Assembly (NCBI GenBank): GCA_035221665.1
Contig: CM069158.1
Location: 27,156,001 to 27,220,000 of the forward strand
Reading direction: 5' to 3'
Source: Okamejei kenojei
Taxonomy: Eukaryota
Length of the DNA stretch: 64,000 nt
Shown: positions 48,957 through 60,900 of the stretch, piece after piece
Numbering within the stretch: the first letter of the stretch is position 1
Layout: each line of letters begins with the position of its first letter
Position numbers: made by a program

Positions 48957-51900
48957 TCAGCTTATAACTCGCCGTCTAAGTGGGCATCAGAATGGCACAG
49001 CTGCTGCCTCACAGCGCCAGAGGCCTGGGTTCAATCCTGACAGGTGCTGTCCGTATGGAATTTGCATGTTCTCCCCATGTATCCTCTGCATGCTCTGGCC
49101 ACTCATCCCAAGGCCCATGCAGGTTTTTCCCATGCAATCCCAATAATTAATTAATTCATTCATTCAATTGACCAGGGTATTGAACAAAGATATGCATCAT
49201 GGCGGTCTATGCCTGGGGTGGCTGAAAGTATTATTTTAAATGTGCTTGCTCCATTTATCAAGTATTTAACCTGATTCTTTCAGCTTTATTACATTTTAGA
49301 ACAAATCCTAATTAATATATACATCTAAATTACAAGAGATAACTGGAATAGAGAATACAAAAAAATAATAATAAAACTACTTCAATTCTTACCGGATGGT
49401 TTCAATAATTTCATGAGCAGCGTCATGATGTTTGTCCTACAAAGACAAAAATTCAACAATATGACAAATGCAAGATCATTAAGGAGTGAAACAACTTGCT
49501 GTGCAATTAATAAGCGAGTTCGGTTTTCCGAAAAACACAAGGAATCATGGGATTTGTCAAAGGTCAAACGCTATAAAGAAAAATCAAACGAAGCGCTGTC
49601 GATACAGTGGGTATAGTTTGGGTCTGATTTTCTGTCTTATTTCTAGCTTGTATTGGTCATGGCGGACTCAAATTACGAACAAAGCGCTGACTGTATAAAC
49701 CGTGTATAAATTCTTATCTTTATTCATGATTTATGTGTAAAAATATTTAATCTGAGGAGGGGAGGTGCCAGGTAGCGGGAGAGCCGGGTGTAATAGCGAG
49801 ATAGAGGGGGCAGATGCGAGTGGAAAACCGAGGGGGGAGGGGGAGACATTCTCAGCATGCTGTACGCACACAGACCCGCGTCTCATCCGCAGCCAGGATC
49901 GAACCCGGGTCCCCGGCCCCCAGGCAGCGCGGAGAAGAAGCGCCAACCCCAGTTCATCTCCGCCTCTCCCGCCGGATCAACCTACAGCCCTGGACCAACG
50001 ACACCAGCAGCCTCAGGCCCATAGCCAGCGTGGAGAAGAGTCAACTCCAGCCCAACCACATTCCAATTCCAGAGGACGCCGCTCCCCAATGGGCCGCTAT
50101 AACGACAAGTCCCAGTTCGCCCATGACCTGGCCGAGCTGCGCTCCCTCAGCCTCCACCACAAGTACAAGACAGAGCCATGCTGCACCTTCCACACCACCA
50201 GCTTCTACCCCTACGGCACCCGCTGCCACTTCATCCACAACCCCGAGGGGGAGCAAGGGCCCCCTGGGCCCAGCCTCCTCCGGCCCGGCGCTAGACTGGG
50301 CCGCACTGTGGCCTTCAGCCCCGACCTGGAGTTGGAGCTGGCCCGGATTCTAGGCAAGGGAGTTAGAGGAGGTTGCTGCTGCCGCCAGCACCATCAGCTC
50401 CAGTGGGCGTGGGCCGGTAGGAGCCCGTCCGCAGACTCTCCGACCAGGATGACTCCAGCAGCAGCAGCTTTGAGTCGCCAGTCTTCAAGCAGGGCTGGCA
50501 GCTGCCCATATTCAGCAGGATCTCGGTGTCGGGCTGAGGGGAGGGGGGTGAAGGTGGAGAAGACCTCCCTGTTGCCTCTCCCAAGCTGTGACTGGGTGCC
50601 GTCTCCCATAGCGTGTCACCCTCCCCTCTGACTTTGTGGGGGCTGCTGTACTTTAGTGTGAAAGACTGGAGGCGGCAAGGGGCGGTGGCATCTTTCCCAT
50701 TGAGAGAATACAAGTTCTCAACAGCCACTGGAAATGGCGAGAGGTGCAGCCGAGGTCACCAGCCCGCCGGGGAACGGCTCCCCTGGAGCCGGAGCAGAGC
50801 CAGCACCCCCCTGCAAGTCTGGGGCTGCCCTCGGACAGGGACAGGACACCCGGGAGGGGACGGCCCAGCAGCAACTCAACAGCACCCGGAGCGCCAGAGA
50901 CCCGACCACAGACAGCACCCGAGCACAGAGACCCGACCAGTTGCCGAGAATGTTTATAGCGAGGGACCTATGACTTGGTCATGTGCAGTCGGAATACAGA
51001 ACTCATTTATTAATTGAAGATACTCCTTTGACAAATAAGGTATGGACTTAAAATATGGATGTGCAGACGTCCCTTAATAATGTTAATTATAGGAGTCCCT
51101 AAAATATTTGCAATATGAATACTAACGCTAAACTGAAATACATGTACAGTAGGTTAGCGCCAAGCATACGCCATACAGTTAGATCACACTGATTTGCACC
51201 AACCGCACCCCATATCGATATATCTGCCAAATACAATATGATAATCTCAAACCTTAAAACATTCATTTTCACATTGTTTACTGAGGGTGGTGGTTGTGAG
51301 AGTGAATAGATTGTGGTGGGAAGAAGCATTGGAAATGAGTCTTTGGGAATTTGCATTGAAGAAGAAAGGAGCTTCCTGGTTTTAATTCTTAAATAGTCCA
51401 GCCCTAGTTGCAATTATACTATTAATCAGAAGACATCCAGAGAACAGATTTTGCACAGACACTCTACTAAATACTTAAGTTAATACAAATACATTGGTTA
51501 AATCACCTTCAACAATTTAAGCTAAAAGGAAATGCAACTCGTATGTCTGCCTCATTTCAATCGATTTTTTCCAATCATGTCTGAAATCTTTTGAACCATG
51601 GCGCCATTCTGGAGATTACTATATTTGTCTCCAAGTCTCACATGTCCTCCAACATGCACTATTCCGAACCAAATACAAAATTCCAATAGTCAATGTGCTA
51701 GAAATGAAGATGCTAGAGTTTGCCATTAGCTCAAGTATGAATCTTAGGTCCAAAGTGGATGACGTCATAATTTACAGTGGTCCAGAATTTGCTGATAAAT
51801 ACCATAGCTCTACTTGAAAATGCAACCAAGTTTAGGATTTCAGCTTAAACCTATCAAAAGACAAAAATACCAGAGGAATCTGTTGCCAAACTCCCCCACT

Positions 51901-57900: not shown

Positions 57901-60900
57901 CCTGAAATTGGGAATGGGGTGGGGGGGGGGGGGGGGGGGGGGGGACACGGACTAAGTATAAACACTGCTATGGGGCGATAGTCCCGAAATGAAGGCGAGG
58001 AGCCAGATGCTTCGGGAGGTATTTTTAATAGTGTCCTTGTCACCAGAGGAGTCTGCAAGAGGAAGATGGTACCTAAACCCTTGCCTTTTATCCTTCTAGC
58101 TAAAGGCCGCCTCTGGACTCAACCATTCCCGTGCCAAGGGGTTTGATAGTGGGAATGGCCCAACCCTTCAGAGCCGCCACACTGCTGTAATTTCTACATG
58201 GTGAAACCAAAATGTATAAAAATAGCCTTTATTAAAATCTGATAATGTGCACTTTAACTGCATGTGATTTTTTCTATTACAAATCTCAAATTGCAGAGTA
58301 CAGAGGCAAATAAATAAATGATGGATCTTTGTCCCAAACATTATGGACGGCACTGTATATGCAATATAATTCAACTCATTTCAGACCTTAGAAACATATC
58401 CCTCCAATTTTATGGAAAAAATAGATCAGTGTCAAAAGGAGAGGACCAAACTTGCGCAACAACAATTTCGAGTTTGGGGGATAGCAGTAAATATATTAGC
58501 AATAAAAATTGAATATAATTTTTCTAAAACAATGTTACTCAAAACATCTCTTACAGGTCTTGCAACTGGCATGATACCCCAACTTCCGAAATATCCATCA
58601 AATATCCAATAACACAAAGCAGAGAATATCAGTGGTCTAGAGGCCAAATGTGAAGGGAATAGGAGAATGAATAAATCAATAAACAATGTACTTACATACC
58701 AGACTGCAGAGTCAACATGAAATTTATTGGAGCTTTGGCCATTTCAAATACGGCACTGATCACATTTTTCTCCTTGTCCAAGCTTTTATTACTACTCTCC
58801 AAAAGAAGTGTCCTATCAATAAGCGATTTCAGTATTTCAACTGCACATGCCCATGTCATAAGTCATAGGTCATTTGCGATAAAAATTCTCGCCAGCCGAG
58901 CTGCTGCATGCAGAGAGACCTGTGTTTCATCCGTATTTTCCAGTTTTGCTTCTTCGAGGTAAGAAACTGCTTTCAAAACTATTAACTAGGTGTATTTATG
59001 GTTTATTTGTACAAAAACGATGACGATTTTGTTGGTTTTATTGCTTTATGCTTCGGTGTTTTATTGCTTTACACTTCGGAGGTGTATAACTGTTATACCA
59101 GTGTCTCTAACTGCCATGTTCAGTAGACATAATATTGTTTAAAGCTCATTGCAGTTATTAGTGTGCCTGGTAAGAACTTCGGCAAACAAACTTTTACAGT
59201 TTTCTGTGATATTTGGATTTGGTCACTCCTTGCAGTGTAGTAATGTAACTTGTAATCATACATACTGCCATATTAATCAATGCAATAAGTGCGGTGATCA
59301 TTCAAGTCGCTTTGCGTTTCATTTTTTTTACTCAGCTGAAAATAAACAAACCGTTGAAACAGGCTCTCACTCTCGCTACTGCCTTTGCAGTGTCCTTGTG
59401 GGTCCATCATTTACATGCCACTGGAAATTAAATCTCACCCCACACTCCTCCACTCTCTATCTCACATTCATCACGAACAGCCACCTGCTACAATAGGTGC
59501 AATGGTCTTTCTTTTGTAATTCCTGCCCACAGTCTCTGATGGGGCCGGTTTCACAGACTTAACCATGACCGGTCACGCTTAACCAGGGCTCTGGGAACTC
59601 GGCATCTGATGGGGACGAGGAGGGTTCCAGAGGGAAGGCAGGGACAACTTAGAATCTGGCAGCAGAGTGGCTCTGTTAATGGGTTCATTCAACAGCGAGT
59701 TCAGTTCAGAAAGAATACACGCCGGTAGATCCGCAGCACTGGTTCAGGAGATCGATCCAATTATTGAACAACAGGAGGTGGAATCCATCTGTGACAGACT
59801 CCACAGTAAGATGTGTCCACAGGAGCGGGTGTTCACTCTGATCAATAACTCGGGCACAGTGAACTTCACAATGTAAAACCATTTTAGTCAAAACTGTCCC
59901 GTAGGCTGCAGACCCGTCTTAACAGTACATTCACACCGCCTGTAGGCAAAGCATCCGCCCACATCACTGTCTGTAGGCAAAGCATCCGCCCACACAGTGA
60001 CCAGATGGTCACTGCCTGCCTCAGATTAAATATATTTTTACACATAAATTAATAAAGATAAGAAAATGTTTCAAACACAAGTAATATATTCTTATTCCAG
60101 GAGCAAACACATTAAGGATTAAATGAAAATAATAAATTCTTTAACATTTTGAATATCCCATAGTTGCAGATTAATGAACTGAACTAGAACTGGGACTGTG
60201 CAAGTAGCGAGTGAACGGCAGAACAAGAAAGGAAGCTATTGAGTCGACAGAATTCTAGATTAATTCATTAGTAGAATAGTTAACAATTTATACATAATTT
60301 ATACAGCACTGTGTTCGCTATTTTCCCCGCAAATGACCTTTGACAAATCCCATAATTTCTTGCGTTTATCGGAATACCAAACTTGCTTATTCTTAAAATG
60401 CTTCATTTCTCAAAAGTAAAATTTAGCAACTGATGTAGCATATTATAGTTGGTATTTGAATATGCATTAGAAAGCCACTTGAGGCTACAGCCCTTATACA
60501 TTTATATAACTAACCTTTAAATTATACTTGATGATGAATACAATTCTTTGAGATTACTGCCCAAAGGGCACATAAATTTTTCAAAGTATTTGATGAATTA
60601 CCTTATGAAATACCATTGATAGATTAAAGCCCAGATGAATGGTCAAAATGGCCAAGTAAAAAGTCACAATTTCTCATTAAGGGATTAATTTTGATTGTGG
60701 CTCACCACCAGTTCTGTAATCCTTACTATTCTATGTGTAATTAAAATGTCAAAAATGTCCAACAATAATACTTCTTCGAACAGTGCTCAGGAATAATAAT
60801 GGACCATGCTCAGATTTATAAAAATAGAAAGATTATCAAGGACACGGCAGCAGTAGAGTACAAATTCAATGGTGCCTCAGGATTAAGGATGACTTGCACT

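What the first reader, a model, noticed from the sequence alone, without database searches (positions are those of the whole stretch)
49481..60395. Pack-type transposon family: two inverted copies with shared ends and different cargo
Seen: 49481-51028 and 58803-60395 are each ~1.6 kb, have imperfect ~90-100 bp TIRs and share three blocks in opposite orientation (49507-49567/60330-60390, 49711-49757/60019-60064, 50941-51028/58803-58895). I saw no similarity between their interiors. Copy A starts at TTAA-GGAG. Known: Kolobok/T2-type elements use TTAA targets and purine-rich termini; Pack-MULE and Pack-TIR elements keep their ends while swapping captured host DNA. Inference: this is a gene-fragment-capturing non-autonomous family in a chondrichthyan. 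It is the best candidate here for an undescribed system.
Basis: partly seen in the sequence, partly recalled or inferred. Interest (0 to 1): 0.8.

Follow-up and report, generated by a model that had tools for sequence, protein, structure and literature searches.

The report
Skate transposon pair, one carrying ZFP36-like fragment
Two old, decayed copies of one cut-and-paste DNA transposon family sit in opposite orientation in an intron of a skate-like fish's DOT1L gene, and one of them carries a dead piece of a host ZFP36-type gene, a known kind of transposon-mediated gene-fragment duplication.

Summary
Copy A (49482-51027) and copy B (58804-60410) share a ~290-410 nt "L" arm and a ~95 nt "R" arm in opposite orientation. 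Each has a significant imperfect ~90 nt TIR. Homology stops at the termini.

Termini read AGGAG/AGGAG in A and AGAAG/AGAAA in B. The flanking 4-mers are ATTA/TTGA (A) and CAAA/CAAA (B). This fits the T2-MITE/Kolobok AGGRR end, but the TTAA target is not shown.

Copy A's 64% GC interior holds a degenerate batoid ZFP36-like fragment, from mid zinc finger 1 to the stop codon plus ~400 nt. It has lost cysteines and needs at least 3 frameshifts. It has no poly(A).

A Leucoraja erinacea gene model (P0007) shows the same truncation, a shared frameshift and the same cargo/R-arm junction, so a second copy exists. Whether it is an orthologue or a paralogue is unknown.

Copy B's interior has no protein homology and may simply be the family's ancestral interior. 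A 42-nt stretch next to B's R arm recurs, inverted, inside A.

Both copies lie in DOT1L intron 1. Pack-TIRs, including Kolobok ones in Xenopus, are already published.

The parts
49482..51027 (+). Copy A, whole element (L arm -> R arm on + strand), 1546 nt
   Evidence: Termini AGGAGTG... / ...ACTCCT from the four-termini alignment and flank print. TIR score reached by 0/1000 shuffles.
49478..49481 (.). 4 nt flanking A on the left: ATTA. Read one base to the right (49479-49482) it is TTAA, overlapping the terminal A.
49482..49775 (+). A, L arm. TIR core ~49503-49580. Subterminal blocks 49670-49719 and 49711-49760 are shared with B.
49776..49847 (+). A, G-rich filler of unknown origin
   Evidence: No match to B, to the arms or to the rest of the window.
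49848..49889 (+). A, inverted partial duplicate of the R-arm inner end plus adjacent family sequence. Homologous to B 58885-58933 in +/+ orientation.
   Evidence: 0/1000 shuffles; first seen as a weak blastn hit.
49890..50088 (+). A, GC-rich interior of unresolved origin. It has only a weak resemblance to the N-terminal region of batoid ZFP36-like proteins (49977-50051, 35-36% identity, E 0.002-0.012 in a 430-nt search space).
50089..50535 (+). A, degenerate ZFP36-like coding fragment. It corresponds to aa 119-288 of the 289-aa Rhinoraja longicauda protein P0001, from mid zinc finger 1 to the stop codon. Three reading frames are needed and zinc-ligand cysteines are lost.
   Evidence: PDB 1rgo E 9e-17; batoid ZFP36-like best hits; tblastn frames.
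50536..50935 (+). A, ~400 nt after the stop codon (64% GC), presumably parental 3' UTR. Also represented in gene model P0007. Contains a 30-nt tandem duplication (50879-50908/50912-50939).
50936..51027 (+). A, R arm (inner end -> terminus)
51028..51031 (.). 4 nt flanking A on the right: TTGA
58800..58803 (.). 4 nt flanking B on the left: CAAA
58804..60410 (-). Copy B, whole element, inverted relative to A, 1607 nt
58804..58902 (-). B, R-type arm
58903..59999 (-). B, interior, 44% GC. No recognisable coding homology. Has splice-like signals on the + strand (GAG|GTAAGA near 58959, ...cccacag| near 59526), a 65-codon ATG ORF ending at 59876, and a 31-nt tandem repeat at 59934-59994.
60000..60410 (-). 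B, L-type arm. It holds ~213 nt (60065-60277) that A lacks.
60411..60414 (.). 4 nt flanking B on the right: CAAA, identical to the left flank
   Evidence: chance of a 4-nt match at a fixed register is 0.0045.
49393..49436 (-). Context: DOT1L exon 2 (DKHHDAAHEIIETIR). Its acceptor lies 45 nt from A's left terminus.

Best explanation
Copies A and B are two independent, old insertions of one non-autonomous cut-and-paste (TIR) DNA transposon family. They lie in opposite orientation in intron 1 of DOT1L in a skate-like batoid.

The family has an asymmetric pair of arms, L of about 290-410 nt and R of about 95 nt. The outer ~90 nt of the arms form an imperfect TIR. The termini fit the T2-MITE/Kolobok AGGRR motif, and the flanks suggest a 4-bp target duplication. 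A transposase supplied in trans would have moved the elements (inferred; no transposase is present in the window).

Copy A is a Pack-TIR-type element. Most of its interior was replaced by about 0.85-1.0 kb of a batoid ZFP36-like gene, covering the distal half of the coding exon and about 400 nt downstream. That fragment is now a dead pseudogene.

The replacement most likely arose by double-strand-break or gap repair with template switching. This is inferred from three features. There is no poly(A) tail. No target duplication flanks the cargo. An inverted partial duplicate of the R-arm inner end lies on the far side of the cargo.

Copy B carries a different 1.1-kb non-coding interior. It is as likely to be the family's ancestral interior as a second capture.
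For: Family and TIRs:
- Shared ends and TIRs: (0/1000 shuffles for both TIRs and both same-type end pairs).
- Homology stops at the termini. The 300-nt flanks are not similar (394, 28, 48 and 251 of 500 shuffles reach the scores).
- Termini and flanks. B has identical CAAA on both sides.
- Definition of T2-MITE/Kolobok (TTAA target, terminal AGGRR, 'RR' ends; Xenopus Kolobok TIRs such as AGGAGAAGG...): passages of PMC6004289.

Cargo of copy A:
- GC 0.64 against 0.38 background.
- PDB TIS11d/ZFP36L2 1rgo E 8.7e-17 and TTP 1m9o E 9e-14. Pfam zf-CCCH scores just below its cutoff.
- The best five database hits are P0001 (Rhinoraja), P0003 (Pristis) and P0004 (Mobula), named batoid ZFP36-like proteins, and two unnamed records, P0002 and P0005. 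All five are 278-299 aa.
- tblastn places P0001 aa 119-256 at 50095-50439 and aa 269-288 at 50472-50531 in another frame. A third frame carries SSGPALDWAAL.

Second copy of the same cargo:
- P0007 (Leucoraja erinacea, 243 aa) starts MGRYSDKCQFAH, against the window's MGRYNDKSQFAH and the parental FCRYGDKCQFAH.
- It shares the GRSPSADSPTR frameshifted reading.
- It runs collinearly to ...VAETVF, against the window's VAENVY at the R-arm junction.

Inverted duplicate of family sequence inside A.

Host context.
Against:
- The TTAA target that defines Kolobok is not seen. A has ATTA/TTGA (2 of 4 positions agree). B has CAAA/CAAA, which is not TTAA. B's termini each deviate from AGGRR at one base.
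- The parental ZFP36-like locus of the same genome was not available. Capture boundaries, microhomology, and a DNA versus cDNA source therefore remain untested.
- The 5' ~310 nt of A's interior has no secure origin.
- B's interior shows no host-gene homology, so 'different cargo' is unproven.
- P0007 may be the orthologous locus in another species rather than a transposed copy. A search with P0007 residues 55-243 found only P0007 itself.
Confidence: 0.7

Rival explanations
1. Single-locus, transposition-independent Pack-TIR. An ordinary non-autonomous element inserted in DOT1L intron 1 was later broken and repaired from a ZFP36-like template. It never moved again. P0007 is merely the orthologous locus in Leucoraja erinacea, and there is no amplifying, repeatedly capturing 'Pack family'.
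For: - Tan et al. 2021 (PMC8277862, passages) conclude that most animal Pack-TIRs are single-copy products of transposition-independent gap filling.
- Only one other protein model with this cargo was found.
- The roughly 10% nucleotide divergence I estimate from 41/53 identical residues is compatible with species divergence. The window's DOT1L exons are only 94-98% identical to the two skate-type DOT1L proteins.
Against: The species of the window is unknown. If it is L. erinacea, P0007 must be a paralogue. The A-to-P0007 divergence is similar to the A-to-B arm divergence (12%), as expected for one burst of transposition.
Confidence: 0.4
2. The ZFP36-like DNA is an independent secondary insertion (a retrocopy or other duplicate) into a pre-existing element, unrelated to transposon-mediated capture.
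For: - The secure fragment lies within what is a single large exon in ZFP36-family genes (recalled), so an RNA source cannot be excluded.
- There is a weak in-frame resemblance further upstream.
Against: - There is no poly(A) run at the 3' end of the fragment and no direct repeat at its borders.
- A shares none of B's 1.1-kb interior on either side of the fragment, apart from a 42-nt inverted piece. A is therefore not 'B plus an insertion'.
- The inverted duplicate of the R-arm inner end points to template-switch repair.
Confidence: 0.15
3. The family belongs to another superfamily with short target duplications (for example Sola or Ginger, 4 bp as recalled; or PIF/Harbinger, 3 bp) rather than Kolobok/T2.
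For: B's identical flanks are CAAA, not TTAA. A's flanks are only TTAA-like. Only 5-7 terminal bases resemble published Kolobok TIRs.
Against: All four termini align to AG[GA]A[GA], the motif given for T2-MITE/Kolobok. An 8-bp (hAT) or TA (Tc1) duplication is not seen.
Confidence: 0.3
4. A and B arose by a local inverted segmental duplication of one element, not by two insertions.
For: They lie only 7.8 kb apart in inverted orientation.
Against: The flanks show no similarity in either orientation. B has its own 4-nt direct repeat. The interiors differ.
Confidence: 0.04

Closest known systems
Kolobok-ended Pack-TIRs of Xenopus laevis (e.g. those built on XR_XL and XFB_XL; Tan et al. 2021, PMC8277862, Supplementary Data 1)
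   Same: Non-autonomous TIR element ends enclosing a duplicated host fragment. Purine-rich AG... termini. An animal host. Capture attributed to gap filling or template switching.
   Different: - The present elements are in a cartilaginous fish. The only chondrichthyan in that survey, the elephant shark, had 0 Pack-TIRs.
- TTAA duplication is not shown here.
- The cargo is about 1 kb, against a median of 224 bp for the duplicated regions.
- The parental copy was not located here.
T2-MITE family / Kolobok superfamily (Hikosaka et al. 2018, PMC6004289)
   Same: Terminal AGGRR (A: AGGAG at both ends), imperfect TIRs, a non-autonomous structure, and a 4-nt flank repeat in B.
   Different: The flanks are not TTAA (CAAA/CAAA in B, ATTA/TTGA in A). 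The elements are 1.5-1.6 kb, larger than typical MITEs. No Kolobok transposase was found or searchable.
Pack-MULEs / Pack-CACTA of plants and Ssk-FB4 of Drosophila (as described in PMC8277862, passages)
   Same: Conserved transposon ends with an interior replaced by GC-rich host gene fragments. A possible second copy carries the same cargo.
   Different: A different superfamily and different target duplication. No evidence here of transcription, selection or many copies. The cargo is clearly degenerate.

Membership tests
Kolobok / T2-MITE | TTAA target-site duplication | tested here: inconclusive
   A has ATTA|...|TTGA (or TTAA|GGAG... with TTTG on the right). B has CAAA|...|CAAA. There is a 4-nt repeat in B, but it is not TTAA. 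A is one or two changes from TTAA on each side.
Kolobok / T2-MITE | Terminal AGGRR (RR ends) in the TIR | tested here: met
   AGGAG and AGGAG in A; AGAAG and AGAAA in B (one mismatch each). Motif definition read in PMC6004289.
Kolobok / T2-MITE | Autonomous partner with a Kolobok transposase and the same TIRs | not testable with these tools
   No vertebrate genome collection was available. No transposase-like ORF lies in either copy.
Pack-TIR (transposon ends enclosing duplicated host sequence) | Both ends of one TIR family flank the insert | tested here: met
Pack-TIR | Interior derived from a non-TE host gene with a parental copy elsewhere | tested here: inconclusive
   Copy A is met at the protein level, but the parental locus of the same genome was not seen. 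Copy B has no homologue.
Pack-TIR, multicopy type | The same cargo plus ends at several loci with different flanks | tested here: inconclusive
   One further copy is inferred from gene model P0007. Its locus is unknown. One search found no more. could not be made.
Processed pseudogene (retrocopy) | Poly(A) tail and a target duplication around the gene fragment | tested here: not met
   Sequence at 50900-50945 and 49776-49900. No direct repeats at the borders.
hAT non-autonomous element | 8-bp target duplication | tested here: not met
   the 8-nt flanks do not match in A or B.
MITE | Small size and high copy number | not testable with these tools
   The copies are 1546 and 1607 nt. The combined arms of copy A (294 + 92 nt) would make a ~390-nt core. 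Copy number is unknown. There are only 2 copies in 64 kb.

The most novel reading that the evidence does not exclude
Skates harbour an amplifying Kolobok-like Pack-TIR lineage. In this reading a ZFP36-like fragment, captured by template-switch repair that also left an inverted duplicate of the element's own inner end, was afterwards mobilised to several loci. At least one copy was then annotated as a gene (P0007). Copy B would represent a second, independent capture of an unannotated, spliced host transcript. Together these would make the first repeatedly capturing Pack-TIR family in a cartilaginous fish.
Probability: 0.12. Interest if true: 0.55.

Novelty: new member of a known kind. Interest (0 to 1): 0.3.

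Why it matters
It adds a cartilaginous-fish example to transposon-mediated gene-fragment duplication. That process has been documented in plants, flies, frogs, alligators and mammals, and it was scored as absent in the one chondrichthyan surveyed.

It also gives a practical warning. A RefSeq-type 'ZFP36-like' gene model in Leucoraja erinacea (P0007) appears to be a transposon-borne pseudogene.

The inverted duplicate of the element's own inner end beside the cargo is a small but concrete footprint of template-switch repair. It is not a new mechanism.

Tried and rejected
- tRNA or SINE origin of the GGGTTCGATCC-like stretch on the minus strand near 49890-49905: ARAGORN found 0 genes in 48000-62000. 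Rfam at E<=1 gave only a sub-threshold SNORD47 match at 51207-51288. Dropped.
- An internal long inverted repeat flanking A's cargo: only 12 nt (TGCTGAGAATGT/TGCCGAGAATGT) align at the nucleotide level (356/1000 shuffles). I therefore claim only the A-to-B match.
- Extension of the ZFP36 fragment to the protein's N-terminus, which would bear on a cDNA source: the matches are weak only. Left open.
- B ORF 59610-59873 as a host exon or transposase start: 0 Pfam families, nothing in PDB. The single hit among 1.84 billion representatives is a protein with a bacterial pre-peptidase C-terminal (PPC) domain at E 8e-4, which I take as chance.
- The other 20 B ORFs gave only two chance-level Pfam matches (TMEM40 E 0.084, DUF7220 E 0.038, both far below their cutoffs).
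- More cargo-type gene models: none found.
- Literature on Kolobok in skates or sharks, or transduplication in cartilaginous fish: searches gave nothing specific.
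Full report
**What is in the sequence**

- 49509-49566/60391-60334 (88% over 58 nt)
- 49711-49760/60064-60015 (89% over 53 nt)
- 50945-51014/58891-58815 (80-84%)

The repeat finder agrees. A more permissive search adds a fourth collinear block, 49670-49719/60323-60278 at 76%.

The two elements therefore share a long "L" arm and a short "R" arm. The L arm is 49482-49775 in A and 60000-60410 in B. The R arm is 50936-51027 in A and 58804-58902 in B. 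Relative to each other the L arms carry indels. B has about 213 extra nt at 60065-60277, and A has about 100 extra nt at 49567-49669.

Aligning the four termini shows a common core of about 70 nt. It runs AATAAGCGAGTTCGGTATTCCGA...GTCAAAGGTCATTTGCGATAAAAAT, that is, an imperfect TIR. Against 1000 shuffles, 0 reach the observed local score for any of four comparisons: A's TIR, B's TIR, the L-type pair and the R-type pair. Neither end recurs elsewhere in the 64-kb window.

**Ends and flanks**

With the termini in register:
- A is ATTA|AGGAGTG...ACTCCT|TTGA (49482-51027).
- B is CAAA|AGAAGTG...CATTTCT|CAAA (58804-60410).

B's two 4-nt flanks are identical. The chance of that at one fixed register is 0.0045 from local composition, and somewhat higher given the few registers I considered. 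A's flanks agree at 2 of 4 positions, and each is one or two changes from TTAA.

The 300-nt flanks of A and B are not similar in any orientation (394, 28, 48 and 251 of 500 shuffles reach the scores). These are therefore two insertions, not a segmental inverted duplication.

**Superfamily**

Passages of Hikosaka et al. 2018 (PMC6004289) define T2-MITEs by a TTAA target and a terminal AGGRR. They define Kolobok by TTAA and RR ends, and list Xenopus Kolobok TIRs such as AGGAGAAGG...

A's termini (AGGAG twice) fit. B's (AGAAG, AGAAA) each miss by one base. The TTAA requirement is not met in B and is only approximated in A. An 8-bp (hAT) or TA (Tc1) duplication is not seen.

I therefore treat 'Kolobok/T2-like' as the best available label, not as established membership.

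**Interior of copy A**

The region 49776-50935 is 64% GC with CpG o/e 0.53. The surroundings are 38% GC with CpG o/e 0.32-0.36.

A 291-codon stop-to-stop frame (49756-50631) gives these matches:
- the tandem zinc finger of TIS11d/ZFP36L2 (1rgo, E 8.7e-17) and of TTP (1m9o, E 9.3e-14)
- Pfam zf-CCCH, just under its cutoff (19.6 against 20.5 bits)

In the 5.8-billion-protein set, the five best hits are 278-299 aa. Three are named batoid ZFP36-like proteins: Rhinoraja longicauda P0001, Pristis pectinata P0003 and Mobula birostris P0004. The other two are unnamed records, which I did not use.

tblastn places P0001 aa 119-256 at 50095-50439 and aa 269-288 at 50472-50531 in a different frame. A third frame carries SSGPALDWAAL. 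At least three frameshifts are therefore present.

The damage to the zinc fingers is as follows. Finger 1 lacks about 8 codons, and its remaining ligands read G and S. Finger 2 has Y in place of its second cysteine. The C-terminal ...LPIFSRISVSG* motif and the stop codon are kept. About 400 nt follow before the R arm, with no poly(A).

The 5' roughly 310 nt of the interior has no secure origin. The N-terminal WKPGPE...RRHSTS region of four of the five batoid proteins tried aligns only weakly to 49977-50051 (35-36% identity, E 0.002-0.012 in a 430-nt search space).

This is a dead fragment of a host gene. It is oriented antisense to DOT1L.

**A second copy of the same cargo**

P0007, a 243-aa Leucoraja erinacea model named 'mRNA decay activator protein ZFP36-like', has these features:
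- It begins MGRYSDKCQFAH. The window reads MGRYNDKSQFAH, and the intact batoid proteins read FCRYGDKCQFAH.
- It shares the frameshifted reading GRSPSADSPTR...SRAGSCP.
- It continues collinearly through the post-stop region (REGT..AQQQL.S.RSA.DP, 55% over 31 aa, E 1.6e-4 against the whole window).
- It ends ...VAETVFCL where the window reads VAENVYSE, which is the first codons of the R arm.

The two copies thus share derived defects and the cargo/R-arm junction. They descend from one already-captured, already-damaged ancestor.

From 41 identical residues out of 53 over the finger region, I estimate about 10% nucleotide divergence (inference). That is similar to the 12% between the A and B L arms.

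Whether P0007 is the orthologous locus in another species or a transposed paralogue could not be decided:
- The window's DOT1L exons are 94-98% identical to both a Rhinoraja longicauda protein and an unnamed skate-type protein, so the species is a skate-like batoid but remains unnamed.
- The cluster look-up that might have helped was unavailable.
- A search with P0007 residues 55-243 returned only P0007 itself.

**Interior of copy B**

The region 58903-59999 is 44% GC. On the + strand it has a donor-like GAG|GTAAGA near 58959, an acceptor-like tract ending cccacag| near 59526, and a 65-codon ATG ORF within the 88-codon frame 59610-59876.

The protein searches gave nothing usable:
- The 88-codon frame and a second ORF have 0 Pfam families.
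- PDB gave nothing below E 1.
- phmmer over 1.84 billion representatives gave one hit at E 7.9e-4, a 570-aa protein with a bacterial pre-peptidase C-terminal (PPC) domain. I take this as chance.
- Twenty further ORFs of at least 40 aa gave only two chance-level Pfam matches (TMEM40 at E 0.084 and DUF7220 at E 0.038, both far below their cutoffs).
- Nothing else in the window resembles the interior.

So 'different cargo' is not demonstrated for B.

A point of logic also matters here. With only two copies, the positions where similarity stops are necessarily the same in both. The 'shared junction' therefore says nothing about a cassette site. B's interior may simply be the family's original interior, which A lost.

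**A footprint of the capture**

A 49848-49889 matches B 58885-58933 in +/+ orientation (0 of 1000 shuffles). In B this stretch is the inner end of the R-type arm plus the first ~34 nt of the interior. In A it lies about 70 nt inside the L arm and is inverted relative to A's own R arm.

Two conclusions follow:
- At least the R-proximal part of B's interior is family sequence.
- A contains an inverted partial duplicate of its own inner end on the far side of the cargo.

P0007's C-terminal residues (...DETQDCTHNSITVAETVF) read like B's arrangement (DETQVSLHAAARLARIF), with this stretch directly beside the R arm. I read this as the signature of break repair with template switches. That corresponds to the gap-filling or FoSTeST models in the passages of Tan et al. 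2021 that I read (PMC8277862). It is an inference. The rest of the two interiors is not similar (26 of 100 and 5 of 100 shuffles).

**Context**

The window encodes DOT1L on the minus strand.

Exon 2 (DKHHDAAHEIIETIR, 100% identical) is at 49393-49436. A's left terminus lies 45 nt upstream of the exon's acceptor. No match to exon 1 (aa 1-27) was found in the window. Both elements are therefore inferred to lie in intron 1.

I searched one DOT1L exon on its own and did not join exons into a spliced model. The N run at 43320-43495 was left as it is.

**Comparison with what is known**

Tan et al. 2021 report 370 Pack-TIRs in 55 of 100 animal genomes, mostly hAT and Tc/mariner (passages). In their supplements:
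- Supplementary Data 1 lists Kolobok-ended Pack-TIRs in Xenopus laevis.
- Supplementary Data 2 gives 0 Pack-TIRs for the elephant shark (supplement search).

My other literature searches returned the following:
- 'Pack-TIR': 3 papers.
- 'Kolobok' with 'skate': 0 papers.
- 'Kolobok' with 'shark': 8 papers, none on this topic by title. I read the Kolobok passages of two of them.
- 'transduplicat' with 'cartilaginous fish': 2 papers, unrelated by title and abstract.

So I found no description of such an element in skates. The kind of element, however, is known.

**What stayed unchecked**

The parental ZFP36-like locus was seen only as proteins of other batoids.

**Verdict**

These are two copies of a T2/Kolobok-like non-autonomous TIR family. 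One is a Pack-TIR-type carrier of a ZFP36-like pseudogene fragment. The other has an interior of unknown, possibly ancestral, origin.

This is a new member of a known kind, of modest interest.

Noticed in passing
49393-49436 (-) and 49482: Copy A's left terminus lies only 45 nt upstream of the 3' splice site of DOT1L exon 2, in the branch-point/polypyrimidine neighbourhood. The exon itself is 100% conserved. Any effect on splicing was not examined.
   Followed up: partly
P0007 (Leucoraja erinacea protein); window 50089-50960: A public gene model named 'mRNA decay activator protein ZFP36-like' appears to be translated from a transposon-borne, frameshifted ZFP36-like pseudogene, running into the transposon's R arm. 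It is probably an annotation artefact.
   Followed up: partly
55942-58357: Another element is bounded by inverted repeats (arms 55942-56075 / 58225-58357, ~135 nt, 90-91%). It contains an ORF with a Tc1-type ...QQDNDPKHTAK... motif (57242-57652; no Pfam hit at E<=0.1) and an ORF with a weak zf-RVT match (56083-56676, E 0.003), so it may be nested.
   Followed up: partly
46385-47266 (-): A Tc1/mariner-type transposase remnant in two adjacent frames: DDE_3 (E 7e-10) and HTH_Tnp_Tc3_2 (E 1e-13).
   Followed up: partly
54730-55363 (-): A LINE-type reverse-transcriptase fragment: weak RVT_1 (E 0.002), and an ALKBH8_N-profile match (E 6e-13) in the overlapping frame.
   Followed up: no
49482-49775: A's L arm keeps 11 CpGs (o/e 1.09) in a region whose background o/e is 0.32-0.36. 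Three of the 7 mismatches between the 58-nt A/B blocks are CpG decays. The family consensus was therefore CpG-rich, and divergence overstates age.
   Followed up: partly
49548-49562, 60338-60352: The TIR core contains TGTCAAAGGTCA, which resembles a direct-repeat nuclear-receptor half-site pair (recalled, not tested).
   Followed up: no
43320-43495: A run of 176 N inside a DOT1L intron.
   Followed up: no
59934-59994: A 31-nt tandem duplication (93% identity) inside B's interior, next to the L-type arm.
   Followed up: no
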